Sequence record: PZ445431.1
Length of the DNA stretch: 64,000 bases
Origin: a phage
Strand: one strand, 5' to 3'
Made by a program: the position numbers and the translations under genes. Under the pieces are notes generated by a model. It was not told the origin of the DNA and made no database searches. It worked only from the letters and a program-made list of their open reading frames with translations. Positions 4,949 through 59,516 of this stretch are shown here, piece after piece (the stretch's first letter is position 1; each line of letters starts with the position of its first letter).

Positions 4949-6325
4949 ATGACTATTGATATTAATAAGCTGAAGGAAGAACTTGGTCTGGGTGATCTGG
5001 CTAAATCTCTGGAAGGTCTTACTGCTGCTCAGAAAGCGGCGGAAGCTAAGCGTCTGCGTGAAGAGCAGGAAGAAAAAGAACTGGCTCGTATGAACGATCT
5101 AGTATCTAAAGCTGTTGGTGAAGACCGTAAGCGTCTGGAAGAAGCTCTGGATCTGGTTAAGAACCTGGATGAGAAGTCTAAGAAGAGCGCAGAACTGTTT
5201 GCACAGACTGTAGAAAAGCAACAGGAAACCATCGTTGGTCTTCAGGACGAAATTAAGTCTCTGTTGGCAGCTCGTGAAGGTCGTTCCTTCGTTGGTGATA
5301 GCGTAGCTAAAGCTCTTTATGGCACTCAGGATGCTTTCGAAGATGAAGTTGAGAAACTGGTTCTTCTGTCTTATATGATGGAGAAGGACGTATTCGAAAC
5401 TGAACATGGTAAGGCTCACGTTAAAGCTGTTAACGGTTCTTCTTCCGTTTCCATGTCTAGCGAAGCATACGAAACTATCTTCTCTACCCGTATTATCCGT
5501 GACCTGCAGAAGGAACTGGTAGTTGGTGCACTGTTCGATGAACTGCCAATGTCCAGCAAAATCCTTACTATGCTCGTTGAACCAGAAGCTGGTCGTGCTA
5601 CTTGGGTAGATGCTTCCAAATTCGGTACTGACGAAACTGTTGGTGACGAAGTTAAAGGTCAACTGACTGAAATCAGCTTCAAAACTTACAAGCTGGCTGC
5701 TAAATCCTTCATCACTGATGAAACTGAGGAAGATGCAATCTTCTCCCTGCTGCCTCTGCTGCGTAAGCGTCTGATCGAAGCACACGCTGTTTCTATCGAA
5801 GAAGCTTTCATGTCCGGTAATGGTACTGGTCAGCCTAAGGGTCTGCTGAAACTGGCTGCTGATGATGGTGCTAAGGTTATTACCGAAGCTAAAGCTGACG
5901 GTTCTGTTCTGGTAACTGCTAAGACTATCTCCAAGCTGCGTCGTAAACTGGGCCGTCACGGTCTGAAACTGAGCAAACTGGTACTGATCGTATCTATGGA
6001 TGCTTACTACGATCTGCTGGAAGATGAAGAATGGCAGGATGTTGCCCAGGTTGGTAACGATGCTGTTAAACTGCAGGGTCAGGTTGGTCGTATTTACGGT
6101 CTGCCGGTTGTAGTTTCTGAGTACTTCCCAGCTAAAGCTGCTTCCGCTGAATTCGCAGTTATTGTTTATAAAGATAACTTCGTAATGCCGCGTCAGCGCG
6201 CCGTTACTGTTGAACGTGAGCGCCAAGCTGGTAAACAGCGTGATGCATACTACGTTACTCAGCGTGTTAACCTGCAACGTTACTTTAATAATGGCGTTGT
6301 GTCTGGTGCTTACGCTGCATCTTAA
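4949..6325 (+). CDS. major capsid protein precursor with N-terminal scaffolding (delta) domain
   Basis: 458 aa; N-terminal charged coiled-coil-like ~150 aa then HK97-like body; strongly biased codon usage (highly expressed). Confidence 0.85.
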   Translation: MTIDINKLKEELGLGDLAKSLEGLTAAQKAAEAKRLREEQEEKELARMNDLVSKAVGEDRKRLEEALDLVKNLDEKSKKSAELFAQTVEKQQETIVGLQDEIKSLLAAREGRSFVGDSVAKALYGTQDAFEDEVEKLVLLSYMMEKDVFETEHGKAHVKAVNGSSSVSMSSEAYETIFSTRIIRDLQKELVVGALFDELPMSSKILTMLVEPEAGRATWVDASKFGTDETVGDEVKGQLTEISFKTYKLAAKSFITDETEEDAIFSLLPLLRKRLIEAHAVSIEEAFMSGNGTGQPKGLLKLAADDGAKVITEAKADGSVLVTAKTISKLRRKLGRHGLKLSKLVLIVSMDAYYDLLEDEEWQDVAQVGNDAVKLQGQVGRIYGLPVVVSEYFPAKAASAEFAVIVYKDNFVMPRQRAVTVERERQAGKQRDAYYVTQRVNLQRYFNNGVVSGAYAAS

Positions 6326-44083: not shown

Positions 44084-46928
44084 CTGTCATAAACTTAACT
44101 GGAATCGGCATACATTCGATCTTACAGTAAGTTCTGTACCAGTCCACAATCTTTTCCGTATCCAGATCTTTACCGATACCCATCATGCCAAGATACATAC
44201 GAGCATATTTTGGGTTAGCGCTCTGACCTGTCTTAAGGAAGAAATCCTTCTTCTTATTCTTAAGAGCTTCGATAAACGGTTTGATTGTTACGTTTGAACA
44301 CTTTTTAATATCTTCCCAGAACATGTCGTGCATCTTATGGAAGAATGCAGCTCTATCGTTTGGTTTATCCTTAATATACTGTTCAACGTGTTCCACTATT
44401 ACATCTTTAATAGAATCCAGATGATAATAGCGAACCAGAAGTAACTTGGCTTCATAGGCATCTGCATGACGTGGTGCGCAATATTCAGGAGTTGAGTGCA
44501 AAATAGCTTTGATTCGCTCTTCTATATACTCGTTGCCTGCACCTTCGATAGTTCCCCAGCTTTCGCTGAAAATATCGATAGTTGCACCCTGATCAAGCAG
44601 ATAATAACGCAAAGTACTAGTATAGTTTCTAGATTCCAGCTCACGACGACGTGCGTACAGTTGTTGGGCTAACTCAATCCAACCTTCGTCAATATTATAT
44701 TGCTCGGAACCCGCAGAAAATCCACTCGTAGATTTATCAATAAAATAATAAATGTTCTGAGCACCACGGTCGCGCCTGATTGCTTGGAAACGCATGTTTG
44801 GCGCTTGGTTTGAGGTTCTAGTGATTACGAATACGTTATCAAAATAGTTAAAGTCAACACCACTCGTTACAGATGGACTACATAATAAACAATCAATCTG
44901 TTGATCAATTAGCTCATTAGTTGTATAATCCAGAATACGTCGGATATCTACATCAGACGTAGAGTTTGAGTGAATTTCTTTAACTAACGCACCAGTATTA
45001 CGACGTAATGCCATTCCCTTCTCATTCAGTTCATCAGGGCCACAATCAGATACTAGGATTGATTTCTCCCCCATCTCTAAAGATGTTTGAAGTGCAACCC
45101 AAATACTGGATTCATCAGGGAATTCATAAGCATGAGCTTTTGCCAGCATTTTACGGTGATGATTATAGAACGCAACCGGTTTATCAAAATCAATCAAAGA
45201 ACCATAGGCTTCAATCGTTTCTGCACTGATATCCCCATCAGATAAGATCACCGTTTTTGCAGTAATAAGAATATCACGAAGAACCTGAATACATTCACGA
45301 CGGTTTTTAACAACCGGAGCGAATAACAGATCATTCATTACTGCGTCACATTCATCAATAAAGATCGTATCAATCTGACCCACAAAGCTCTTGAACTTAT
45401 GTATAGAGTGAATAGTTGAAGACATACGATCAATAGCACCACGTTTGAAGTTCAGCATATCAACTGACTTATCATACTGGCCAGCACCGAATTTCTTCGC
45501 GTTAGAAGATACAAGTGCCCTAGTATTTGTGATTGCAATAAAGTTTCCTGGAAGAACACCTGCATCTAGCCACTTAGTTACTGCGGTAGTTTTACCCGTA
45601 CCAAGACTTGCCTTAACAAATGTTAAATGTCCTTTTGGTGGTACAATATTAATTTTCAGGTATGGAACTTCTGGTGGAGAATCTGTGTCTAGACGTTTTA
45701 ATGGTACACCTTTTAAGTTTGGTGGAATCTCACGTTTGGAGTTATTTACAAAGGCTTTGAGAGCCTGCTTACGACCGTTATTAAAGTAATCTTGAATATT
45801 ACGACTATTATCCTTAGTTGCAATATATTCAGATAAGGCTGGTTTAATCTCACGTTCCAACCACGTAAAATCAACACCATCTTCTAACGCTCTGTGATAA
45901 AGTTTTGGGATAATACGCAGGTACACTCCATCCTCAGCTTCTTCTAGTTCGCTGATGGTTTCTTCCACTTTATCAGATGCAGCCTTCTTACCTTTAATTT
46001 GGTCAAGTAAGGAGTAGAATTCTTCTTTGAACTCGCCTCTAGTTGTCTCAAAGTCAACTAGGTTATTAGGTAGATTCACCTTCGAACCCTTAACGTACAC
46101 AAGACGTGGTTTATTCTCCGCTTTAAACGGATCGACTATACCATCATCAAATAAGGGATCTGCGAAATAGTGAAGCTGAACAGAAGAATAATAAGCTAAG
46201 TCAGCAATATCAAAGCCATACTTTTGCTTACTACTGTCATTGATAGATGTAAATAAGAACTTTAACTGTCCCTGCGTTACCTTGACATTAGATTCTAGCA
46301 TTAAGTGCATTCGGATACCTAGTTTTAGGCCAGCCGAAGACGATGCATGAGCAATAAACCCTGCATCAAGAGGGAACATATCCTCACTAATACTATTCAA
46401 CATCTTAATAATATGACGTGCCATGCCAACAAGATTAAACTTGTCATAGCCACCAGTATCTACAATACCATCCACGTCCATAGCAATAATATGACTAGGA
46501 TTGGATACGTTAAAGTTTCCTCTGGTACGACGCACATTATCTTTTGGAGCTAGACATTTACCACGAATAGCTACAATATGCGGGTCTTTGGTAAGACGAC
46601 GCATGATAGGTAACATTTCAGCAAGGTTTTGCGGGTCAAGTTCTTCAAGTACGTCAAATTTGAAGGGCATGGAAGCTGGTTTACCTTCTGGATGCTCTTT
46701 AGAGAATCGCTTTGCAAAGGTGTAATCTTCCACTTTGATCTCTTTCCAGATGCCAGTGGCTTTATCTCTGGAAAATCCTGCGTGACCTTGTAGGATTGAG
46801 AACACAACAATACTCCTATGTTGGTTATTCGAATATCTTTCTTTAGGACTATTCAAAAGAATAGAACAACTATTACTACCATTTACACAAACATTAATCA
46901 TCATCAAGCAGTATGAATAAGTTATCAT
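44016..46928 (-). CDS. large P-loop NTPase, putative replication origin-binding / helicase-like protein
   Basis: Walker A ASLGTGKTT and Walker B IFIDECDAV; up to 970 aa; N-terminal ~60 codons look non-coding and no SD at first ATG, so true start probably downstream. Confidence 0.5.
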   Translation of the reverse strand: MITYSYCLMMINVCVNGSNSCSILLNSPKERYSNNQHRSIVVFSILQGHAGFSRDKATGIWKEIKVEDYTFAKRFSKEHPEGKPASMPFKFDVLEELDPQNLAEMLPIMRRLTKDPHIVAIRGKCLAPKDNVRRTRGNFNVSNPSHIIAMDVDGIVDTGGYDKFNLVGMARHIIKMLNSISEDMFPLDAGFIAHASSSAGLKLGIRMHLMLESNVKVTQGQLKFLFTSINDSSKQKYGFDIADLAYYSSVQLHYFADPLFDDGIVDPFKAENKPRLVYVKGSKVNLPNNLVDFETTRGEFKEEFYSLLDQIKGKKAASDKVEETISELEEAEDGVYLRIIPKLYHRALEDGVDFTWLEREIKPALSEYIATKDNSRNIQDYFNNGRKQALKAFVNNSKREIPPNLKGVPLKRLDTDSPPEVPYLKINIVPPKGHLTFVKASLGTGKTTAVTKWLDAGVLPGNFIAITNTRALVSSNAKKFGAGQYDKSVDMLNFKRGAIDRMSSTIHSIHKFKSFVGQIDTIFIDECDAVMNDLLFAPVVKNRRECIQVLRDILITAKTVILSDGDISAETIEAYGSLIDFDKPVAFYNHHRKMLAKAHAYEFPDESSIWVALQTSLEMGEKSILVSDCGPDELNEKGMALRRNTGALVKEIHSNSTSDVDIRRILDYTTNELIDQQIDCLLCSPSVTSGVDFNYFDNVFVITRTSNQAPNMRFQAIRRDRGAQNIYYFIDKSTSGFSAGSEQYNIDEGWIELAQQLYARRRELESRNYTSTLRYYLLDQGATIDIFSESWGTIEGAGNEYIEERIKAILHSTPEYCAPRHADAYEAKLLLVRYYHLDSIKDVIVEHVEQYIKDKPNDRAAFFHKMHDMFWEDIKKCSNVTIKPFIEALKNKKKDFFLKTGQSANPKYARMYLGMMGIGKDLDTEKIVDWYRTYCKIECMPIPVKFMTDEERQMHEEALAELGARNDSEE

Positions 46929-47301
46929 ACCTCAGTGCTGCGCTCTCTTAACTCTTATCCAGATCAGAACCTAGGTCATTGGCCGCTAAGCCGATTCTGA
47001 TTGCCCTCACTATCCTATTGGTAGGTGGCTACTGGACGTGTCACCATTCGCTGCTCTTTTCGTTCGCACCCCCATATAAAGCTCTGCCTATATAACGAGC
47101 TAAATATGCACGGTTTGGATTTACCTTTCCGAATTCAGGGTACGCAGATCACTTAATTGATAATTAACTAATGCAGTATAAACACTAGTAATAGTTAAAA
47201 CAACCCTTAATGGGGCAGCCTAACTGTTCCGTATTGCGGATTGTAAACAAGAAAAATTAGCAAAATCAATTTTTACTAATGTCTCTCAATTCAATATAAA
47301 T

Positions 47302-47331
47302 ATTATATCAAGATTTTGAGCATCCTGCAAG
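47302..47331 (-). promoter_or_regulatory. T5-type early promoter
   Basis: minus strand CTTGCA - 18 nt - TATAAT. Confidence 0.45.
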
Positions 47332-47421
47332 TAAAATTTTTCCGAAGGTGCTATCAGTGTCCTTGAGCACAGAGAAAACCGAGTCATTTTGACTCGGTAA
47401 TCAGGATTGAGCTAATGAAAA

Positions 47422-47817
47422 TCAATCATCATTTAGGCCTGGGACATAGATTCCAATGCGATTTAATTGACCTTTAGCTTCTTCGAGAATATCTTCGGTG
47501 TACTCCCAAATATCATCTTCTACTTGCAAAAGATAAGGGGATTCACCAGTTTCGGGGTCACGTGTAATGGCTAAGCCACGTGGATGGAATATAGAGAAGT
47601 TGAGGGCAACAATCAAGCCCATACTGGACAATTCATTCCAGTCAGCTTCCCAACCATCATCTTCATCTTCGTCCACAAAGACACCTACACTAGGGTCTGT
47701 TACAGAAGTAAACGGAAATGTTACACTAACCTTGTCAACCCCCAACCAACGTGCAAGGAGCCCTTCAGCACGCTCTACCAAACTAGGATCTATCTGACGC
47801 CAAAATACTTGTTCCAT
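47422..47817 (-). CDS. hypothetical protein, tandem paralog B
   Basis: 131 aa; shares W-E-W-EL-MGL-ALN...TGE-P...QV...W-Y-E...L-R-G...PGL pattern with adjacent ORF. Confidence 0.4.
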   Translation of the reverse strand: MEQVFWRQIDPSLVERAEGLLARWLGVDKVSVTFPFTSVTDPSVGVFVDEDEDDGWEADWNELSSMGLIVALNFSIFHPRGLAITRDPETGESPYLLQVEDDIWEYTEDILEEAKGQLNRIGIYVPGLNDD

Positions 47818-47826
47818 TCTGCCTCC

Positions 47827-48255
47827 TTAAGCAGTTAAACCTGGGATCATATACCCGAAACGACGAAGTTTCTGAATCCCCTCATTTACTTCCTCGGGCG
47901 AATATGACCAGCCCTCACTTTCATTTACCTGGAAAGCAGGAGCTTCACCAGTGCGATAATTTACAATAAGACGGTGATTTGCAGGCATAAACAGCTTATG
48001 GTTCAAGGCAAAAACCAGACCCATTTCATCGAGTTCTTTCCAGTCTACAATCTCTTCTACTCCCTCCCCTAAATCCACGCTAACTCCAATACACGGAGCT
48101 TCCTCTAGTGGGCCTTTAAAAGACAGGAAGATATCGTTATTCTCACACCAAATCTTAAGCAGATTGATGGTTTCATTGTACATACCATTAGGGAGAGAAC
48201 GCCAGAAGTTGAGGAGCATAGGATTTACCTCTTTCATGAAAATATTATTGAACAT
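47827..48255 (-). CDS. hypothetical protein, tandem paralog A
   Basis: 142 aa; paralogous to 47422-47817. Confidence 0.4.
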   Translation of the reverse strand: MFNNIFMKEVNPMLLNFWRSLPNGMYNETINLLKIWCENNDIFLSFKGPLEEAPCIGVSVDLGEGVEEIVDWKELDEMGLVFALNHKLFMPANHRLIVNYRTGEAPAFQVNESEGWSYSPEEVNEGIQKLRRFGYMIPGLTA

Positions 48256-48257
48256 GC

Positions 48258-48797
48258 TTATACCTTAAGTTTCTGAAGAGCCTTACACATTTCAAGATCT
48301 GGACTAAATTCCAGCATATAGCTTATAGCATTTAAATCTTGAAGGTTTATTCCAGTCCTGCCATTTACAATAACAGTAGGAAATTGGTACATCATAGCAC
48401 CAGCATCATCTAGGACGCACCAATGCTTGAGCTTATGTTTTTCTACGAAACGTAAGACAGAATTACCTCGAGATAAACCACCTCCAGTAAAATCTGTTGT
48501 ACCAAGAAAACGATCGATCAAACCGAGTCCGGTCATAATCTGAACGTTCTCCATTTCATTTCGTACAGAAAACCATGAAGAGACCCCAACAATCATTATT
48601 GGGGAGGGTTTAAGAAAGTTCTGAAAAGCCTGGAGTAATGGCTTATAAACCCAATCACTGCCAAAGAACAGCTTTTCACTGTCTGGAGCATAATGGTGAG
48701 AGATGCTCGAATTGAGCACCCCATCAATATCCAGGAAAATCACAGGAGTATTACTTATTTCCACCAGTAGCATCCCACGTCCAGACTTTAACTTCAT
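48258..48797 (-). CDS. HAD-superfamily phosphatase
   Basis: HAD motif I VIFLDIDGVLN and motif IV VLDDAG. Confidence 0.5.
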   Translation of the reverse strand: MKLKSGRGMLLVEISNTPVIFLDIDGVLNSSISHHYAPDSEKLFFGSDWVYKPLLQAFQNFLKPSPIMIVGVSSWFSVRNEMENVQIMTGLGLIDRFLGTTDFTGGGLSRGNSVLRFVEKHKLKHWCVLDDAGAMMYQFPTVIVNGRTGINLQDLNAISYMLEFSPDLEMCKALQKLKV

Positions 48798-48936
48798 CAG
48801 TAAAAGGAACTGGAACCTTCAATTCACCTTTACCCCACATAACAGATAGGAACAGAGAATAAATGGTAATCATACCGATTAGGTTGACAAACCATACTAG
48901 ACCTTTCCAGATACCCTTAAAAATCTTCTTCACCAT
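48751..48936 (-). CDS. small single-pass membrane protein
   Basis: ATG at 48936 preceded by AAGGAGGG; hydrophobic helix LVWFVNLIGMITIYSLFLSVMW. Confidence 0.35.
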   Translation of the reverse strand: MVKKIFKGIWKGLVWFVNLIGMITIYSLFLSVMWGKGELKVPVPFTDEVKVWTWDATGGNK

Positions 48937-49076
48937 ATTCTCCCTCCTTAATAAGGAACTCTTTCCATTCTGCTGTATCCTCATAGATAACGCAGAAATC
49001 ATCACTCTTCCATGAGAAGTCATCGGTAGCAAATTCGAAACGGTAGCACCAACTACCGTCCGGCCATACTAAAAGA

Positions 49077-49928
49077 TCACACATGCTCTTGCGGTGCATA
49101 AATAGTTCCTTCCATAAAGGCTTCTACTTGACCAATGAAATGCTTGTTACCAAAAACTTCGGCAGCTCCAGCCCGCCATACAGTAACACCACGTTTCTCA
49201 TACTCAAGCTGTTCATCATAACGAACTTGAGGGTTAACAACCATCATCTTAGTTCCACGACATACAGCAGGAAATAGCTCCCAGTTGAAGTCGATTACTT
49301 GGTTGCTACAACCTACTACAATAACCATATCATTGCTAGTAAGTGTATCAAACAGGTTAATCTGACCCATATACCACGGAGCCGTCTCACCAAAGAATGT
49401 TACGTTTGGTTTTACCCATTCGTAATCCTCAGGGGCAATCGCAGTATACCCAACATCTTCGATGATTTGGTTGCGACCCTGACGATAGATCACCTCTTTC
49501 AAGTACCCGTGAGCGTGAATGATTTCATCACGAGGGATACCAGCACGTTCCAGAAGGTCATCAACGTTAGTAGTGAAGTTCTTCACGCTATCCGCACCAT
49601 AACGCTGGAACCATTCTGCAATTCGCAGATGGGCAATGTTAGGCTCAACAGTCTGTAATTCCTGACGACGCATGTTGTAGAACTCATGAGTCTTGAGATA
49701 CAGATCGTTACCATCTTTATCAATGCCAGGGAAACGAGCACTGAAGTAGTTAGGATCATCTTCACCACAGAAGCGACGGAAGCCAGCTTCAAAGTTAGGC
49801 AAGCTACATACTTCCTCTAGATCGTACTCATCCCACAAGGATTTCCCACTAGCAGTATCAGTACGGAAAGCACGAACACCACTATCTACACTCAAACCTG
49901 CACCACTAACAACGATTAGTCTACGCAT
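49077..49928 (-). CDS. Sir2 (sirtuin)-fold protein lacking the zinc-ribbon module
   Basis: 283 aa; GAGLSVDSGVRAFR, TTNVDDL, IHAHG, VTFFGE and VIVVGCS match sirtuin Rossmann motifs; no Cys4 zinc site. Confidence 0.6.
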   Translation of the reverse strand: MRRLIVVSGAGLSVDSGVRAFRTDTASGKSLWDEYDLEEVCSLPNFEAGFRRFCGEDDPNYFSARFPGIDKDGNDLYLKTHEFYNMRRQELQTVEPNIAHLRIAEWFQRYGADSVKNFTTNVDDLLERAGIPRDEIIHAHGYLKEVIYRQGRNQIIEDVGYTAIAPEDYEWVKPNVTFFGETAPWYMGQINLFDTLTSNDMVIVVGCSNQVIDFNWELFPAVCRGTKMMVVNPQVRYDEQLEYEKRGVTVWRAGAAEVFGNKHFIGQVEAFMEGTIYAPQEHV

Positions 49929-50122
49929 TATACGATTCCTTGCTTGAATCCTTCGATGATATTTTGGAGCAGAATTGCTTCTTCTGGGCGAACCTTCTCT
50001 TGCTTAATAAGCATATCCAAACCAGCAATACAGGTAGCTACTCCAGCATTATACCCAGCATTCCACTGCTCCATGAGCATATTTTCTAAATTACTTTTTA
50101 GATTCTGATTCAAGAAGTCCAT
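49928..50122 (-). CDS. hypothetical protein
   Basis: ATG at 50122 with GGAGG SD; stop overlaps Sir2 start. Confidence 0.3.
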   Translation of the reverse strand: MDFLNQNLKSNLENMLMEQWNAGYNAGVATCIAGLDMLIKQEKVRPEEAILLQNIIEGFKQGIV

Positions 50123-50294
50123 AAAGTTTTTCCTCCAATTCCATAATACGATTTTCGTAAGAAGCACGCAGCTTCTCGATGGACAAAGCACGAACTGTAA
50201 CTTCATCTGAATTGATCGCTAGCTGAGCTAGATCTTCTGTTTCCATACGTCCGTTGTAAATTAAGCGATATTTAAGATGTTTTACGTTTTTCAT
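50091..50294 (-). CDS. hypothetical protein
   Basis: 67-aa ORF in operon. Confidence 0.3.
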   Translation of the reverse strand: MKNVKHLKYRLIYNGRMETEDLAQLAINSDEVTVRALSIEKLRASYENRIMELEEKLYGLLESESKK

Positions 50295-50303
50295 TCTTGT
50301 TCC

Positions 50304-50585
50304 TTAGTTCTGTACTGTAAATTCATTCTTATCACAGTGAGCATAATAATACCCATACATACGATAAATTTTCACAGCCTTAGTAGACCCCTTCGATTCT
50401 TCATAATCAATCCAGAGCCACTTGTCTTTACCTACATAATGTACCCGAAACTTCTTAACTTTCTTATCATTCCATGTTGCAACAACACGACGATAATCAA
50501 ATCCGCCCAACCAATCTAGAGCCTTACGTTCTTCACTAGGCTCTCCAAGATGGGAAACATCTACTTTTGGAAGCAATTCGCTCAT
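50304..50585 (-). CDS. hypothetical protein
   Basis: 93-aa ORF; first gene after promoter, SD GAGGAGAAAG. Confidence 0.4.
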   Translation of the reverse strand: MSELLPKVDVSHLGEPSEERKALDWLGGFDYRRVVATWNDKKVKKFRVHYVGKDKWLWIDYEESKGSTKAVKIYRMYGYYYAHCDKNEFTVQN

Positions 50586-50613
50586 AGCTTTCTCCTCTCA
50601 AATTTATAAATCA

Positions 50614-50642
50614 ATTATACATAAGTTTTAGTTCGAAAGCAA
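50614..50642 (-). promoter_or_regulatory. T5-type early promoter
   Basis: minus strand TTGCTT - 17 nt - TATAAT followed by TTTATAAATTTGAGAGGAG. Confidence 0.6.
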
Positions 50643-50652
50643 ATAAAATAAA

Positions 50653-50677
50653 AGCCAGGTCGACTAGCAACCTGGCT
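50653..50677 (-). terminator. rho-independent terminator after nrdD
   Basis: AGCCAGG ... CCTGGCT stem; on minus strand followed by TTTATTTTATTT. Confidence 0.6.
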
Positions 50678-54030: not shown

Positions 54031-56364
54031 ATGAGCCATCGTATCGAAAAAGTAATTAAACGTGACGGTACTGTTCAGGACTTTGCTCCTGAAAAACTCA
54101 ATGATTGGGCTGCATGGGCATGTAAAGATACTGACGTAAGTTGGTCTGCCGTAGTTATGGCTGCCCTGAAAAATCTACCCAAAGGTGTTGTAGACTCCGA
54201 TACACTCCAAGATGTGTTAATTAAAGCCGCTGAAGGTCTTATCAAAGACAACCCAGCATATGATACTGTAGCAAAGGAATTACGTCTTGCGCAGATGCGT
54301 AAACGCCTATATGATTCTTTTGAACCTCCTTCTCTGCGTTTCTTCCACGATCATATGGTTCGTGTCGGCGCTTGGGAAGACATGAGTGCATGGATTAGCG
54401 ATGATCAGTTTGAAGCTCTGAACCAAGTTATTGATCATGATCGTGATCGTTTATTCACCAGTGGTGGACTGAAACAGTTCTTCGACAAGTATTCCCGTCG
54501 TAATATTGCAACTGGTGAAATTTATGAAACCCCGCAGTTTGCCTACATGGGTATGGCAATGGCGATGTTATCTCAACCTAACTGGACAATTCTCGATGCA
54601 ATCGACCTCTACAACGCAATGTCACTCCATAAAATCAACGTGCCGACTCCACCTCTCGTGGGTCTTAGGAGCAGCGACCGCGGTTTTGCTTCTTGTTGTC
54701 TTGTTGATAGTACTGATACCCTCGATTCAATCGACACAGCCGAGCACATCGTCTTCAAAATGGTCGCAGCCAGAGCGGGAATCGGGTATCATCTTGAAAG
54801 CCGATCAATTGCTGATCCGGTGCGAAATGGGGCATTCCCGCATTCCGGAAAACTGCCATATTATCGACACATTGACCGATCAGTAAAAGCTAACACTCAG
54901 CAAACCCGTGGTGGTTCTGCTACTGTGTCTTACCCATACTTCGATCCTGAAATCATTCAGTTGATGCAGGTTAAGCAGCAACGTGCTACAGACGAGAATA
55001 AAATCGATAAGATGGATTACTCTCTGAGCTTTAACAACCTTCTGTTAAAACGTTACCTGAAAAATGAAGATATTACGCTAATGTCCTACTTCTACGCACC
55101 AGAAGTTCATGAAGCGTTTTATGGCGAAGATGAGGCTAAGTTTGAAGAAATCTACGTGGCAGCGGAGAAACGTGTGGCATCTCTTACAAAGATCGACCAC
55201 GAAGGAAAAACAATTCCAGCAGCTCCTAGAATCTCTGCAAAAGAAATCCTAGATACTTGGTTACGTATCCGTATGGAAACAGGGCGTATGTATGCTCATC
55301 ACATTGGTGAATCTAACCGTCATGGTAACTTCCTTGACCCGATTCGTATGACCAACCTTTGTGTTGAAATTACTCAGCCAACCCGTCCATTCCATCACAT
55401 TACGGAGCTGTATAAGACCCAAGATCAGTTAGACGATATGCGTCCAGAGGACATTGGTGAAGTATCTCTGTGTAACTTAGGTGGTGTTGTACTAGGTCGC
55501 ATGGAATCTCTGGCTGAATGGGAGAAAACTTGCTACATCCTTCTGAAATTCGTTGATACAATCATCGAGATTCAGGATTATCCATTCCCAACCATGGAAT
55601 ACACGGCTAAGAAACGTCGTAACGTTGGTATTGGTCTGATGAACGCAGCAGGTGCAATGGCAGCAGAAGGTTTGGCTTACGAAGGTGTTGAAGCACGTAA
55701 CTGGATTCACCGTGAAGCTGAAAAGCTGTCCTACTTCCTGCACAAAGCCTCTGTACGTCTGGCCAAAGAACAGGGTGCATGTGACTGGTTTAATCGTACT
55801 AAGCCTTCACAAGGAACTCTGGTAATCGACACGTATAAGAAAACTGTTGATGAACTGGTAACTGTAGGTCTAGAAATGGATTGGGAATCTCTACGTGCAG
55901 ATATCCTGAAATATGGTATGCGTAACTCCGTTCTGACTGCTCAGATGCCGGGTGAAAGTTCCTCTGTACTGCTAGGTGTTACTAACTCTATTGAACCGCC
56001 TCGTAAGATTGTATCTATCAAGGGTAGTGCAGTGAATAAAGTAATTGCAATTGCTCCAGGTGCAACTGATTGGGATACATTAATGAGCTATAAACTGGCT
56101 TATGATGTAGATCGTATCGAGTGGATCAAATGGGTAGCAACCATGCAGAAATTCTTCAGTCAGTCTATAAGTACGAATATGTACTATGACTACACCAAGT
56201 TTGAGAATGAAATTATTCCTGGCCCAGTAGTAGTTCGTGACTTCATGACTGCTGTTAAGTACGGTTGGAAAACTTTCTACTATGCAAACTTTAACACCGA
56301 GAATGGTGGTGGTGCAGGGGAAGAAACTGCTGCTGGATGCGCATCAGGTGGTTGTAACCTGTAA
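54031..56364 (+). CDS. nrdA: ribonucleoside-diphosphate reductase large subunit
   Basis: ATG at 54031 with AAAGGAAAG SD; N-terminal ATP-cone (RDGTVQDF), class I RNR body, C-terminal Cys pair CASGGC. Confidence 0.9.
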   Translation: MSHRIEKVIKRDGTVQDFAPEKLNDWAAWACKDTDVSWSAVVMAALKNLPKGVVDSDTLQDVLIKAAEGLIKDNPAYDTVAKELRLAQMRKRLYDSFEPPSLRFFHDHMVRVGAWEDMSAWISDDQFEALNQVIDHDRDRLFTSGGLKQFFDKYSRRNIATGEIYETPQFAYMGMAMAMLSQPNWTILDAIDLYNAMSLHKINVPTPPLVGLRSSDRGFASCCLVDSTDTLDSIDTAEHIVFKMVAARAGIGYHLESRSIADPVRNGAFPHSGKLPYYRHIDRSVKANTQQTRGGSATVSYPYFDPEIIQLMQVKQQRATDENKIDKMDYSLSFNNLLLKRYLKNEDITLMSYFYAPEVHEAFYGEDEAKFEEIYVAAEKRVASLTKIDHEGKTIPAAPRISAKEILDTWLRIRMETGRMYAHHIGESNRHGNFLDPIRMTNLCVEITQPTRPFHHITELYKTQDQLDDMRPEDIGEVSLCNLGGVVLGRMESLAEWEKTCYILLKFVDTIIEIQDYPFPTMEYTAKKRRNVGIGLMNAAGAMAAEGLAYEGVEARNWIHREAEKLSYFLHKASVRLAKEQGACDWFNRTKPSQGTLVIDTYKKTVDELVTVGLEMDWESLRADILKYGMRNSVLTAQMPGESSSVLLGVTNSIEPPRKIVSIKGSAVNKVIAIAPGATDWDTLMSYKLAYDVDRIEWIKWVATMQKFFSQSISTNMYYDYTKFENEIIPGPVVVRDFMTAVKYGWKTFYYANFNTENGGGAGEETAAGCASGGCNL

Positions 56365-58665: not shown

Positions 58666-59516
58666 AGCAATATATTGAAACTGGAAAACGTATTCTTGAA
58701 GAGGGTGTATGGGTAACGAATCCTAGAACAGGGGTTCGTTGCCTAACCATTATTGATGCAGACTTTACCTTTAACGTAGGAGCAGGAGAACTGCCGCTAG
58801 TAACTACTCGTAAAGCATTTGCTAAACAAGCAATAATGGAAATGATCGGATATCTCCGTGGGTACGACTCAGCAGCACAATTCCGCGCTATTGGTGTTAA
58901 TACATGGAATGCTAATGCAAATGAAAATATTGCCTGGCTAGGTAATCCATTCCGTAAAGGCGAGGATGATATGGGACGAGTCTATGGTGTTCAAGGACGT
59001 CATTGGACTAATTCTGATGGTATGGTATTTGATCAGTTAGCCAAAGTCTATCATAATTTGAAAAGAGGGATTGACGATCGTGGAGAAATTTTAACTTTTT
59101 GGAACCCTGGGGAATTTCGTAAAGGATGCCTACGTCCGTGTATGCATACCCATCAATTCTCTATTTTAGGTGATACACTATACCTAAACTCTTTCCAGAG
59201 GTCTAATGATTTCTTGCTGGGCCAAGTATTTAATATGGTGCAATGCTATGCACTTCTAGCTATTATGGCACAGATTACAGGTCTTAAGCCAGGTATTGCT
59301 CGTCAAAAGATTATTAATCTTCATATCTATGAAGATCAGTATAATGTTCTGATGGAGCACAAGCAATTCGATCGTGAACCTTTTGCACCTCCTACTTTAG
59401 AAATCAATCCAAATATTAGAACTTTGGATGATGTATTAACGTGGGTAAGTAAGGATGATTTTACTGTTCGTGGCTATGAACACCATCCTGCTATTGCATA
59501 TCCATTTACGGTGTAA
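58662..59516 (+). CDS. thyA: thymidylate synthase
   Basis: 284 aa; catalytic Cys context [10 protein letters not shown] and ThyA-like GLNTWNA... body. Confidence 0.85.

What the first reader, a model, noticed from the sequence alone, without database searches (positions are those of the whole stretch)
47422..50650. Candidate accessory operon: Sir2-like + small membrane protein + HAD phosphatase + tandem paralog pair
One T5-type promoter (50614-50642, minus strand) precedes nine tightly packed or overlapping ORFs with no intervening terminator: three small unknowns, the Sir2-like gene, a 60-aa acidic ORF, a 61-aa single-pass membrane protein, a HAD-family phosphatase (DIDGVLN, VLDDAG) and two paralogous ~135-aa proteins. 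The pairing of an NAD-utilising fold with a phosphatase suggests a coupled nucleotide/NAD-derivative processing pathway, but that link is inferred from adjacency only.
Basis: inference. Interest (0 to 1): 0.55.

Follow-up and report, generated by a model that had tools for sequence, protein, structure and literature searches.

The report
T5-type early operon: sirtuin, phosphatase, orphans
This is a real, tightly packed early operon of a T5-like phage (TrudiRoth) that is already annotated in phage T5 as T5.100-T5.107; its sirtuin-plus-phosphatase pairing was already predicted in print to repair cut RNA ends, and nobody has tested what any of its genes does.

Summary
The window is Escherichia phage TrudiRoth (Bas30). 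At 47422-50585 on the minus strand, nine ORFs lie between a PN25-class promoter (TTGCTT-17-TATAAT, 50642-50614) and an intrinsic terminator (47398-47378). Junctions are overlaps or gaps of 10 nt or less. The unit equals T5.100-T5.107, which the T5 record annotates with the same promoter and terminators.

The Sir2 belongs to a phage-specific, CobB-like (class III) sirtuin clade. It keeps every NAD+/catalytic motif but has no zinc-binding cysteines. The phosphatase is HAD_SAK_2 with all four HAD motifs. The paralog pair is DUF7415, a small phage-only family with no structural relative.

The Sir2-HAD link is not new. Iyer et al. 2022 described it in T5-like phage SP15 and proposed KptA-like RNA-end repair. 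My tests partly support that. The same Sir2 clade sits beside RNA ligase, cREC and a kinase in PVP-SE1, and HAD relatives often sit near RNA ligases or kinases. But the two genes occur apart in most other lineages, TrudiRoth has no RNA ligase or kinase, and the block is a recombination mosaic.

Verdict: real, already known, function untested.

The parts
50653..50677 (-). Intrinsic terminator of nrdD, directly upstream of the block's promoter
   Evidence: 10-bp stem with 6 GC pairs, followed by a T-run. My1 and DU_PP_V keep the hairpin through compensatory substitutions. T5 annotates the same element at 55694-55729.
50614..50642 (-). Sigma-70 promoter of the T5 early class (TTGCTT, 17 nt, TATAAT)
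   Evidence: Read directly from the sequence. Same hexamers, spacing and leader as T5 PN25, PN26 and the T5.100 promoter. The -35 TTGC and -10 TAnnAT are invariant in seven phages.
50304..50585 (-). u1, 93 aa, unknown function (phrog_7953)
   Evidence: Present in only some of the T5-like loci, at 81-100% identity. SHSML-45 has it at 98% although its nrdD is only 60% identical.
50091..50294 (-). u2, 67 aa, unknown function (phrog_5236; equals T5.101)
   Evidence: Found in Tequintavirus and Epseptimavirus. Only a weak match in My1 (E = 5.5e-4).
49928..50080 (-). u3, 50 aa (64 aa if started at 50122 as in GenBank), unknown function (phrog_5827)
   Evidence: Identity varies from 34% to 100% and the gene is absent from some T5-like loci.
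49077..49928 (-). Sir2-like protein, 283 aa: phage-clade, class III-derived sirtuin without zinc-binding cysteines (equals T5.102)
   Evidence: - PF02146, E = 1.4e-21; phrog_2162.
- Closest solved structure is E. coli CobB, by sequence and by fold (model pLDDT 88.4).
- Invariant in 34 clade members: GAGxSxxSGxxxFR, F83-Y84-x-x-R87-R88, TTNVD, H140-G141, FFGE, GxS, N232.
- No cysteines where CobB binds zinc.
- Below the CobB equivalog cut-offs. No PADLOC match.
48917..49099 (-). u5, 60 aa, acidic (pI 4.2), motif VWPDGSWCYR (phrog_5116; equals T5.104, with T5.103 a weak paralog)
   Evidence: Follows Sir2 in 29 of 35 T5-like loci, and in the related non-T5 contigs L059 and L060.
48751..48936 (-). 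TM61, 61 aa, basic, one predicted transmembrane helix (phrog_11166)
   Evidence: Present only in Epseptimavirus and a few Tequintavirus loci. My1 and DU_PP_V have unrelated small membrane ORFs in the same position.
48258..48764 (-). HAD-superfamily phosphatase of the HAD_SAK_2 family, 168 aa from the GTG start (alternative ATG starts at 48773 and 48797); equals T5.105
   Evidence: - PF18143, E = 2.5e-18, 67.2 bits against a cut-off of 27.5.
- Invariant catalytic motifs: LD12xD14GVLN, S62, R99, D119-D120.
- No sequence match to any solved structure.
- Not related to the phage's Dmp dNMP phosphatase.
47827..48255 (-). DUF7415 paralog A, 142 aa (equals T5.106)
   Evidence: PF24187, E = 9e-37. 31% identical to paralog B. 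Kept as an A/B pair in Tequintavirus, Epseptimavirus and Klebsiella T5-likes.
47422..47817 (-). DUF7415 paralog B, 131 aa (equals T5.107)
   Evidence: - PF24187, E = 3.1e-28.
- The family has only 120 clusters among 1.84 billion representatives.
47378..47398 (-). Intrinsic terminator that closes the unit
   Evidence: 9-bp stem with 5 GC pairs, followed by a T-run, 24 nt after the last stop codon. T5 annotates the equivalent terminator at 58952-58976.

Best explanation
The block is the TrudiRoth version of the T5.100-T5.107 early transcription unit. It is an accessory cassette in the slot between nrdD and the primase/helicase gene. A strong host sigma-70 promoter of the PN25 class drives it, an intrinsic terminator ends it, and the tight or overlapping junctions suggest translational coupling. 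This part is shown by anatomy and conservation.

The rest is inferred. The two enzymes most likely heal damaged RNA ends, such as tRNAs cut by host anticodon nucleases:
- The SAK-type HAD phosphatase would remove terminal 3' or 2',3'-cyclic phosphate, or dephosphorylate the ADP-ribose-phosphate by-product.
- The zinc-less phage-clade sirtuin would use NAD+ to remove a 2'-phosphate, as KptA/Tpt1 does.
- The phage encodes no RNA ligase or polynucleotide kinase, so sealing would fall to host enzymes such as RtcB.

The pairing is facultative, not obligate. The DUF7415 A/B pair and the small ORFs (u1-u3, TM61) are co-transcribed passengers with separate, unknown roles. DUF7415 looks like a non-catalytic binding module. 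u5 may be a sirtuin partner.
For: **The unit.**
- Promoter, terminators and packing.
- Identical annotation in T5.

**The enzymes look active.**
- All sirtuin NAD+/catalytic residues are invariant in 34 clade members.
- All four HAD motifs are invariant.

**RNA-repair context.**
- In PVP-SE1 the same Sir2 clade (55% identity) lies in the order RNA_lig_T4_1, cREC_REC (cyclic-phosphate processing), AAA_33 kinase, Sir2, ATP-dependent ligase, MazG-like. That is a healing-and-sealing set lacking only a Pnkp-type HAD phosphatase, and the HAD is what T5-likes carry next to Sir2.
- About 12 of 58 viral HAD_SAK_2 loci outside T5-likes have an Rnl1/Rnl2 RNA ligase and/or a PseT/AAA_33 kinase within 8 kb.
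- In Aeh1-type phages the order is HAD, RnlA, DUF7415.
- Iyer et al. 2022 reached the same model independently.

**The two genes tend to travel and be lost together.**
- Sir2-HAD adjacency recurs in My1 (HAD 43% identical), in the divergent contig L070 and in bacterial locus L149.
- Two independent deletions (DT57C, SHSML-45) disable both enzymes together and spare DUF7415.

**Biological setting.** TrudiRoth carries about 25 tRNA genes. The idea that T5-like phages are under pressure from tRNA-targeting defences comes from my own background knowledge and was not tested here.
Against: - No transcript data exist and no biochemistry exists for any gene in the block. No paper names T5.100-T5.107.
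- TrudiRoth has no detectable RNA ligase, cREC or polynucleotide kinase, so the pathway is incomplete in the phage.
- Host RtcB can join 2',3'-cyclic-phosphate and 5'-OH ends directly, without prior healing (background knowledge).
- Sir2 and HAD are apart in most lineages: 25 of 26 non-T5 Sir2 loci lack HAD, and 58 of 58 non-T5 viral HAD loci lack Sir2.
- Sir2 has been swapped independently of HAD (52% versus 91% identity to T5).
- The Sir2 neighbours in phapecoctaviruses show no recognisable RNA-repair domain.
- The sirtuin keeps the class III Y-x-x-R motif and the catalytic His. That fits an ordinary protein deacylase equally well.
- No sirtuin has been shown to act on an RNA phosphate (background knowledge).
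Confidence: 0.4

Rival explanations
1. The sirtuin is an ordinary NAD+-dependent protein lysine deacylase, a CobB-like deacetylase/desuccinylase. It would reset acylation of host or phage proteins early in infection. The HAD phosphatase next to it would do something unrelated.
For: - Closest sequence and fold relative is E. coli CobB.
- The catalytic His and the acyl-lysine channel motifs (FFGE, TTNVD) are invariant.
- Y84 and R87 align with CobB Y92 and R95, the class III residues that bind acidic acyl groups (alignment; their role is from background knowledge of Sirt5 and CobB).
- Sir2 occurs without HAD in most lineages.
Against: - The zinc-binding cysteines that all characterised deacylase sirtuins rely on for structure are absent.
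- Scores are far below the CobB equivalog cut-offs (87.7 bits against 243).
- In PVP-SE1-type phages the conserved neighbours are RNA ligase, cREC and a kinase, not protein-modifying genes.
- The host already has CobB (background knowledge).
Confidence: 0.22
2. Sir2 and HAD form a small-molecule NAD+/ADP-ribose pathway. The sirtuin consumes NAD+ or transfers ADP-ribose, and the HAD dephosphorylates an ADP-ribose-phosphate or nucleotide product. The purpose would be NAD+ economy or removal of immune signals. This is closest to the first reader's wording.
For: - Bacterial locus L149 places HAD_SAK_2, a calcineurin-like phosphoesterase, a SIR2 and an ADP-ribosylglycohydrolase in one operon.
- A distant Sir2 clade member sits next to a Nampt gene (L071).
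- The same phage encodes the NARP3 NAD+-rebuilding pair Bas30_86/87 (PMC13464706).
- Iyer et al. also allow that the HAD could process ADPr>P.
Against: - L149 carries a canonical SIR2, not the phage clade.
- No Macro, Nudix or ARG gene accompanies the T5-type block.
- HAD relatives associate with RNA ligases and kinases far more often than with NAD+ enzymes.
- A phage that spends genes rebuilding NAD+ has little obvious reason to hydrolyse it. This last point is inference.
Confidence: 0.15
3. There is no functional module. The nrdD-primase slot is a recombination hot spot that collects unrelated accessory genes. They are co-transcribed only because they share the slot's promoter and terminator.
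For: - Strong mosaicism. For example, L017 against TrudiRoth: nrdD 59%, u1 81%, Sir2 98%, u5 63%, HAD 98%.
- u1, u3, u5 and TM61 are patchy in distribution.
- Sir2, HAD and DUF7415 have clearly different distributions across phages: 981, 499 and 883 records.
- Phages with natural deletions are viable.
Against: - Sir2-HAD adjacency recurs in lineages where the surrounding genes differ (My1, L070, L149).
- Both enzymes link independently to RNA-end-processing genes elsewhere.
- All 35 T5-like loci sampled, which span five genera, carry both Sir2 and DUF7415.
Confidence: 0.2

Closest known systems
Phage T5 early unit T5.100-T5.107 (NC_005859, 55708-58976)
   Same: Same slot between nrdD and the primase. 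Same terminator-promoter module and closing terminator. Same order: Sir2 (T5.102), u5-like (T5.103/T5.104), HAD (T5.105), DUF7415 A and B (T5.106/T5.107).
   Different: TrudiRoth has u1 and u3 where T5 has T5.100, and TM61 in place of one u5 copy. Its Sir2 allele is only 52% identical to T5's, while the HAD is 91% identical.
Iyer et al. 2022 'type 3' phage sirtuin neighbourhood: sirtuin plus Swiss-army-knife HAD, typified by Escherichia phage SP15 (PMC9503650)
   Same: The same two families side by side in a T5-like phage, and the same inference of a functional link. SP15's DUF7415 protein appears among my hits (P0149).
   Different: That paper does not discuss the DUF7415 pair, u5, the promoter and terminator, the natural deletions, or the absence of an RNA ligase or kinase in these genomes.
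rV5/PVP-SE1 'type 2' neighbourhood: RNA ligase, cREC, kinase, sirtuin, ligase, MazG
   Same: Same phage sirtuin clade, 46-55% identical.
   Different: It has the sealing and kinase enzymes that T5-likes lack. It has no HAD and no DUF7415.
T4 Pnkp + Rnl1 tRNA healing and sealing
   Same: The phosphatase half of Pnkp is also a DxDxT-type HAD enzyme acting on RNA 3' ends (background knowledge). The proposed logic of countering anticodon nucleases is the same.
   Different: T5-likes have no kinase domain and no RNA ligase. The HAD here is a stand-alone protein of a different family, with no sequence match to any solved structure.
KptA/Tpt1 RNA 2'-phosphotransferase
   Same: The proposed chemistry is the same: NAD+-dependent removal of an RNA 2'-phosphate as ADP-ribose 1''-2'' cyclic phosphate.
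   Different: A different fold: KptA/Tpt1 has the ART fold and this protein a Rossmann-type sirtuin fold. The protein is not a family member, and the activity is untested for any sirtuin.
E. coli CobB (class III sirtuin, PDB 1s5p and 6rxj)
   Same: Best sequence and fold match. It shares the GAGxS motif, the Y-x-x-R motif, the TQNID-like motif, the catalytic His and FGE.
   Different: About 25-27% identity. The phage protein has no zinc-binding cysteines and an insertion of about 30 residues at positions 47-80. It falls below the NCBIfam equivalog cut-offs.

Membership tests
Sirtuin / Sir2 family (PF02146) | Pfam model score above the gathering threshold | tested here: met
   77.7 bits against a cut-off of 24; E = 1.4e-21.
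Sirtuin / Sir2 family (PF02146) | NAD+-binding Rossmann motifs (GAGxSxxSGIPxFR, TQN[IV]D, GxS, N) and the catalytic His of the HG motif | tested here: met
   G9-A10-G11-x-S13, S16-G17, F21-R22, T120-N121-V122-D123, H140-G141, G206-x-S208 and N232 are invariant in 34 clade members and align with CobB. The Q of TQNID is replaced by T.
Sirtuin / Sir2 family (PF02146) | Zinc-binding module with four Cys in the small domain | tested here: not met
   No Cys between H140 and F178, where CobB has C...CxCC. The only invariant Cys in the clade is C41. The model shows a beta-hairpin at 141-158 in that position.
CobB-type protein deacylase (NCBIfam equivalogs NF040867, NF001755) | Score above the curated equivalog cut-off | tested here: not met
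   71-88 bits against cut-offs of 243-320.
Class III sirtuins (Sirt5/CobB) | The Y-x-x-R pair that binds acidic acyl groups | tested here: met
   F83-Y84-N-M-R87-R88 aligns with CobB FYNARR and is invariant in the clade. The role of these residues comes from background knowledge.
Defence-type Sir2 effectors (ThsA, DSR, Sir2-HerA, pAgo-associated) | Match to PADLOC defence-system models | tested here: not met
   No PADLOC family at E <= 0.01 for any of the nine proteins.
HAD superfamily / HAD_SAK_2 (PF18143) | Pfam model score above the gathering threshold | tested here: met
   67.2 bits against 27.5, covering model positions 1-138 of 139.
HAD superfamily / HAD_SAK_2 (PF18143) | Catalytic motifs: I (DxDx[TV]), II (S/T), III (K/R), IV (DD or DxxxD) | tested here: met
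   D12-I-D14-G-V, S62, R99 and D119-D120 are invariant across T5, My1, Aeh1 and L070 homologs.
HAD superfamily / HAD_SAK_2 (PF18143) | Phosphatase activity on RNA terminal phosphates | not testable with these tools
   Only contextual support: RNA ligase or kinase lies near about 12 of 58 viral homologs outside T5-likes.
DUF7415 (PF24187) | Pfam model score above the gathering threshold | tested here: met
   125.5 and 98.2 bits against 27, with two matched stretches in each protein.
Phage RNA healing-and-sealing system (Pnkp/Rnl type) | An RNA ligase and a 5'-kinase encoded with the end-healing enzymes | tested here: not met
   phmmer with PVP-SE1 and Aeh1 Rnl1, Rnl2, PseT, kinase and cREC probes against all six-frame ORFs of TrudiRoth found nothing significant (best hit E = 0.029, cREC probe; best kinase-probe hit was the dNMP kinase at E = 0.049). 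None is annotated either.
KptA/Tpt1 RNA 2'-phosphotransferase | ART-fold catalytic domain | tested here: not met
   The protein has a sirtuin fold. Any similarity would lie in the reaction chemistry only.
Single operon | One promoter, no internal terminator, closely packed genes on one strand | tested here: met
Single operon | One continuous transcript | not testable with these tools
   I found no T5-like transcript-mapping paper covering this region.

The most novel reading that the evidence does not exclude
The phage-clade, zinc-less sirtuin would be the first sirtuin shown to act on a nucleic-acid phosphate, working as an NAD+-dependent RNA 2'-phosphotransferase. Together with the SAK HAD it would form a ligase-less healing-only module that hands cleaned tRNA ends to a host ligase and so blunts anticodon-nuclease defences. 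The orphan-fold DUF7415 A/B pair and the small u5 protein would be new specificity or regulatory partners.
Probability: 0.2. Interest if true: 0.65.

Novelty: already known. Interest (0 to 1): 0.3.

Why it matters
**If the RNA-repair model is right**
- It would give a new chemistry for sirtuins.
- It would show a second way, besides carrying spare tRNAs, for T5-like phages to survive tRNA-cutting defences. That matters for how robust these common therapeutic phages are across hosts.

**As it stands**
- The block is an ordinary, already-annotated accessory operon. Its main hypothesis is already in print.
- What this analysis adds is practical:
  - The association is facultative.
  - The phage lacks the sealing enzymes.
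  - Natural Sir2/HAD-deleted phages (DT57C, SHSML-45) are available as ready-made controls.
  - DUF7415 is an orphan fold that behaves independently of the enzymes.
  - A widespread database label (phrog_18062 'Sir2') is wrong.

Tried and rejected
- **Generic promoter scan.** It missed the real promoter because TTGCTT scores only 3 of 6 against TTGACA. Comparison with the annotated T5 promoters settled it.
- **Solved-structure relative for the HAD.** None by sequence, even at E <= 10.
- **Function for DUF7415 by fusions.** Among 120 clusters, only one informative fusion (to thymidylate kinase) and one weak ClpX zinc-finger match. Too thin to use.
- **DUF7415 linked to RNA ligase.** True in Aeh1-type phages. 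Not true in RB43 or in the 18-37 kb contigs L210-L223. Not adopted.
- **HAD as a paralog of the T5 Dmp dNMP phosphatase.** Rejected.
- **Sir2 as a defence-type NADase.** No PADLOC match.
- **RNA-repair genes next to Sir2 in phapecoctaviruses.** None recognisable; the neighbours are DUF7275/DUF7277 and unknowns.
- **Structured RNAs.** No Rfam family anywhere in the window at gathering thresholds.
- **Literature.** No paper names T5.100-T5.107. A search for T5 transcript maps gave nothing usable. Burroughs & Aravind 2016 is not in the library.
- **Word-indexed protein searches for DUF7415.** They reached only T5-like relatives.
- **The first HAD alignment.** It was too divergent for the locus search, so I redid it with a tighter alignment.

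Full report
**Identity of the window.** The 3.5-kb region is 100% identical to Escherichia phage TrudiRoth (Bas30, MZ501109; Epseptimavirus, Demerecviridae). Window coordinate equals record coordinate minus 482. The nine ORFs are bas30_0057 to bas30_0049. GenBank names only the Sir2-like gene.

**Checking the observation.**
- Junctions are gaps of 9, 10, 2 and 9 nt and overlaps of 1, 23, 20 and 14 nt.
- The promoter is -35 TTGCTT (50642-50637), a 17-nt spacer, and -10 TATAAT (50619-50614). The generic scanner missed it because TTGCTT scores only 3 of 6 against TTGACA.
- The annotated T5 promoters PN25, PN26, ligA, phoH and T5's own promoter for this unit all have TTGCTT-17-TATAAT. The TrudiRoth promoter even shares the PN25 leader ATTTATAAATTTGAGAG.
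- Across seven phages of five genera, the -35 TTGC and -10 TAnnAT are invariant while the spacer varies. My1 and DU_PP_V keep the nrdD terminator hairpin just upstream through compensatory substitutions.
- A 9-bp hairpin with a T-run follows the last stop codon (47398-47378).
- Inside the block there are only two weak terminator-like matches. Promoter-like matches are at or below the shuffled expectation.
- The T5 RefSeq record annotates the same layout: nrdD terminator, promoter, T5.100-T5.107, terminator.

So the unit is real and already annotated. That it gives one transcript is inferred from anatomy, and I found no transcript map.

**The proteins.**
- *Sir2 (283 aa).*
  - It matches PF02146.
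  - Its nearest solved relative is E. coli CobB, by sequence and by fold (model pLDDT 88.4).
  - In 34 clade members every NAD+/catalytic element is invariant: GAGxSxxSGxxxFR, TTNVD, H140-G141, FFGE, GxS and N232. So is F83-Y84-x-x-R87-R88, which aligns with the class III Y-x-x-R of CobB.
  - The zinc-binding cysteines are missing; a beta-hairpin takes their place.
  - It scores far below the CobB equivalog cut-offs and matches no defence-system Sir2 model.
- *HAD (168-179 aa).*
  - It is HAD_SAK_2, the 'HAD domain in Swiss Army Knife RNA repair proteins'.
  - All four HAD motifs are invariant.
  - It has no sequence match to any solved structure.
  - It is unrelated to the phage's Dmp dNMP phosphatase.
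- *The tandem paralogs.*
  - They are 31% identical to each other and belong to DUF7415.
  - The conserved core is the C-terminal ~70 residues, which is all that T4-like phages carry.
  - An exhaustive profile search finds only 120 clusters among 1.84 billion. The one informative fusion is to a thymidylate kinase.
  - The conserved residues (G, L, P, W, Y) look structural, and the His of the 'HP' motif is lost in paralog A. I therefore read it as a binding module rather than an enzyme. This is inference.
- *u5 (60 aa, pI 4.2).* It defines a small family with the motif VWPDG[ST]WCY. T5 has two tandem copies.
- *TM61.* It has one hydrophobic helix.
- *u1, u2 and u3.* They match only PHROGs of unknown function.

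**Do the genes travel together?** I fetched the nrdD-primase slot from representative genomes and from IMG/VR.
- Starting from Sir2 (61 loci):
  - The 35 T5-like loci all carry DUF7415.
  - HAD is present in the E. coli/Salmonella T5-likes and in My1. It is absent from the Klebsiella type and DU_PP_V.
  - u1, u3, u5 and TM61 are patchy.
  - Of the 26 loci from other phages (phapecoctaviruses, rV5/PVP-SE1 types, jumbo phages), 25 have neither HAD nor DUF7415 within 8 kb. The exception is L070, a divergent contig with nrdD, Sir2 and a HAD_SAK_2.
- Starting from HAD (71 viral and 36 bacterial loci):
  - 13 viral loci are T5-like and all carry Sir2.
  - None of the other 58 viral loci has a Sir2.
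  - One bacterial locus (L149) does.
- Adjacent genes have very different histories. TrudiRoth against T5 gives nrdD 89%, Sir2 52%, HAD 91% and DUF7415 69-73% identity. The TrudiRoth Sir2 is closer to phapecoctavirus Sir2 (60%) than to T5's.
- Two independent natural deletions exist. DT57C fuses a Sir2 fragment to the last 41 residues of HAD. SHSML-45 keeps only HAD residues 64-171. Both keep the DUF7415 pair.

So the block is a mosaic. Sir2 and HAD form a facultative pair, and DUF7415 behaves independently of them.

**What is already published.** Iyer, Burroughs, Anantharaman and Aravind 2022 (PMC9503650, sec. 3.7.3) define a distinct phage sirtuin clade with three neighbourhood types.
- Type 3, 'typified by Escherichia phage SP15', is sirtuin plus SAK HAD.
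- They propose that the sirtuin acts like KptA/Tpt1 on RNA 2'-phosphates.
- They propose that the HAD either resolves terminal phosphates or processes ADPr>P.
- No paper names T5.100-T5.107.
- The same phage is the source of the NARP3 NAD+-rebuilding pair Bas30_86/87 (PMC13464706). That pair lies outside this window.

**Testing that model.**
- *Support.*
  - In PVP-SE1 the gene order is RNA_lig_T4_1, cREC_REC, AAA_33 kinase, Sir2, ATP-dependent ligase, MazG-like. This confirms their type 2 and shows a healing-and-sealing kit that lacks only a Pnkp-type HAD phosphatase.
  - About 12 of 58 viral HAD loci outside T5-likes have an RNA ligase and/or a PseT/AAA_33 kinase nearby.
  - Aeh1-type phages have the order HAD, RnlA, DUF7415.
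- *Against.*
  - TrudiRoth encodes no detectable RNA ligase, cREC or polynucleotide kinase.
  - Phapecoctavirus Sir2 neighbours show no RNA-repair domain.
  - The retained class III motif fits a protein deacylase just as well.
  - L149 (MoxR-vWA, HAD, calcineurin-like phosphoesterase, SIR2, ADP-ribosylglycohydrolase) and L071 (Nampt next to Sir2) point instead to ADP-ribose/NAD+ metabolite handling.

**Verdict.**
- The operon is real (high confidence) and already known.
- The most likely function of its enzymatic core is RNA-end healing that relies on host sealing (about 0.4).
- The rivals are a plain deacylase (about 0.2), an NAD+/ADPr metabolite pathway (about 0.15) and no coupling at all (about 0.2).
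- Interest is modest because the hypothesis is in print and nothing here is surprising.
- The untested sirtuin chemistry and the orphan DUF7415 fold are the parts worth an experiment.

Noticed in passing
window 48258-48530 (C-terminal half of the HAD); L002 5288-5560; L012 6022-6318: phrog_18062, labelled 'Sir2 (NAD-dependent deacetylase)', matches the C-terminal half of the HAD phosphatase and not a sirtuin. The label probably comes from deletion variants such as DT57C, where the remnant is annotated 'sir2 (defective)'. It makes RefSeq list two 'Sir2' genes in many T5-like phages.
   Followed up: yes
L002 (DT57C) 5288-5560; L012 (SHSML-45) 5960-6318: Two independent natural deletions remove Sir2 and the catalytic N-terminus of the HAD but leave the DUF7415 pair intact. 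These viable phages are ready-made controls for testing function.
   Followed up: yes
window 48917-49099; L005 7244-7602; L059 8728-8955; L060 816-998: The small acidic protein u5 (motif VWPDG[ST]WCY) sits directly after Sir2 in 29 of 35 T5-like loci and in two related contigs from outside the T5-like group. T5 has two tandem copies (T5.103 and T5.104). It may be a sirtuin partner.
   Followed up: partly
window 46805-47330, minus strand: The next promoter (TTGCAG-17-TATAAT, 47330-47302) lies about 370-490 nt upstream of the primase/helicase start (46928, or 46805 as annotated). T5 has the same long gap: promoter at 58999-59073, coding sequence from 59545. Nothing in Rfam matches it. Its purpose is unexplained.
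   Followed up: no
window 49077-49928 compared with L005 and L006: The TrudiRoth Sir2 is 60% identical to the Sir2 of unrelated phapecoctavirus myoviruses but only 51-52% identical to T5's, while the adjacent HAD is 91% identical to T5's. The sirtuin allele has apparently been swapped on its own.
   Followed up: partly
L076 5315-7049 (TrudiRoth record 69803-71537, outside the window): The same phage carries the recently described NARP3 pair: NadR-like Bas30_86 and PnuC-like Bas30_87, which rebuild NAD+. T5 itself carries an NAD+-dependent DNA ligase. So T5-like phages both make NAD+ and spend it, and the sirtuin is one of the spenders.
   Followed up: no
L149 1693-9611 (Prevotellaceae metagenome-assembled genome): A bacterial operon encodes, in order, MoxR ATPase, a vWA protein, HAD_SAK_2, a calcineurin-like phosphoesterase, a zinc-ribbon protein, a canonical SIR2 and an ADP-ribosylglycohydrolase. 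This is an independent Sir2-HAD pairing in an ADP-ribose-processing setting.
   Followed up: partly
L014 15958-18519 (Aeh1); L090 8001-10526; protein P0206: In Aeh1-type T4-like phages a single-core DUF7415 gene directly follows RNA ligase 1, with a HAD_SAK_2 gene about 2 kb away. One metagenomic protein fuses DUF7415 to a thymidylate kinase. These are weak hints of a nucleotide or RNA link for DUF7415. Other contexts (RB43, L210-L223) do not share them.
   Followed up: partly
GenBank records hit: DUF7415 proteins are labelled 'tail tube protein' or 'exonuclease', and the Sir2 is labelled 'tail assembly protein', in several deposited T5-like genomes. None of the evidence here supports those names.
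   Followed up: no
L004 6785-7266; L010 5868-6815: In the Pectobacterium T5-likes My1 and DU_PP_V, two small predicted membrane proteins (55-62 aa and 83-90 aa) occupy the positions after Sir2. They are unrelated in sequence to TM61. A small membrane ORF therefore recurs in this slot without homology.
   Followed up: no
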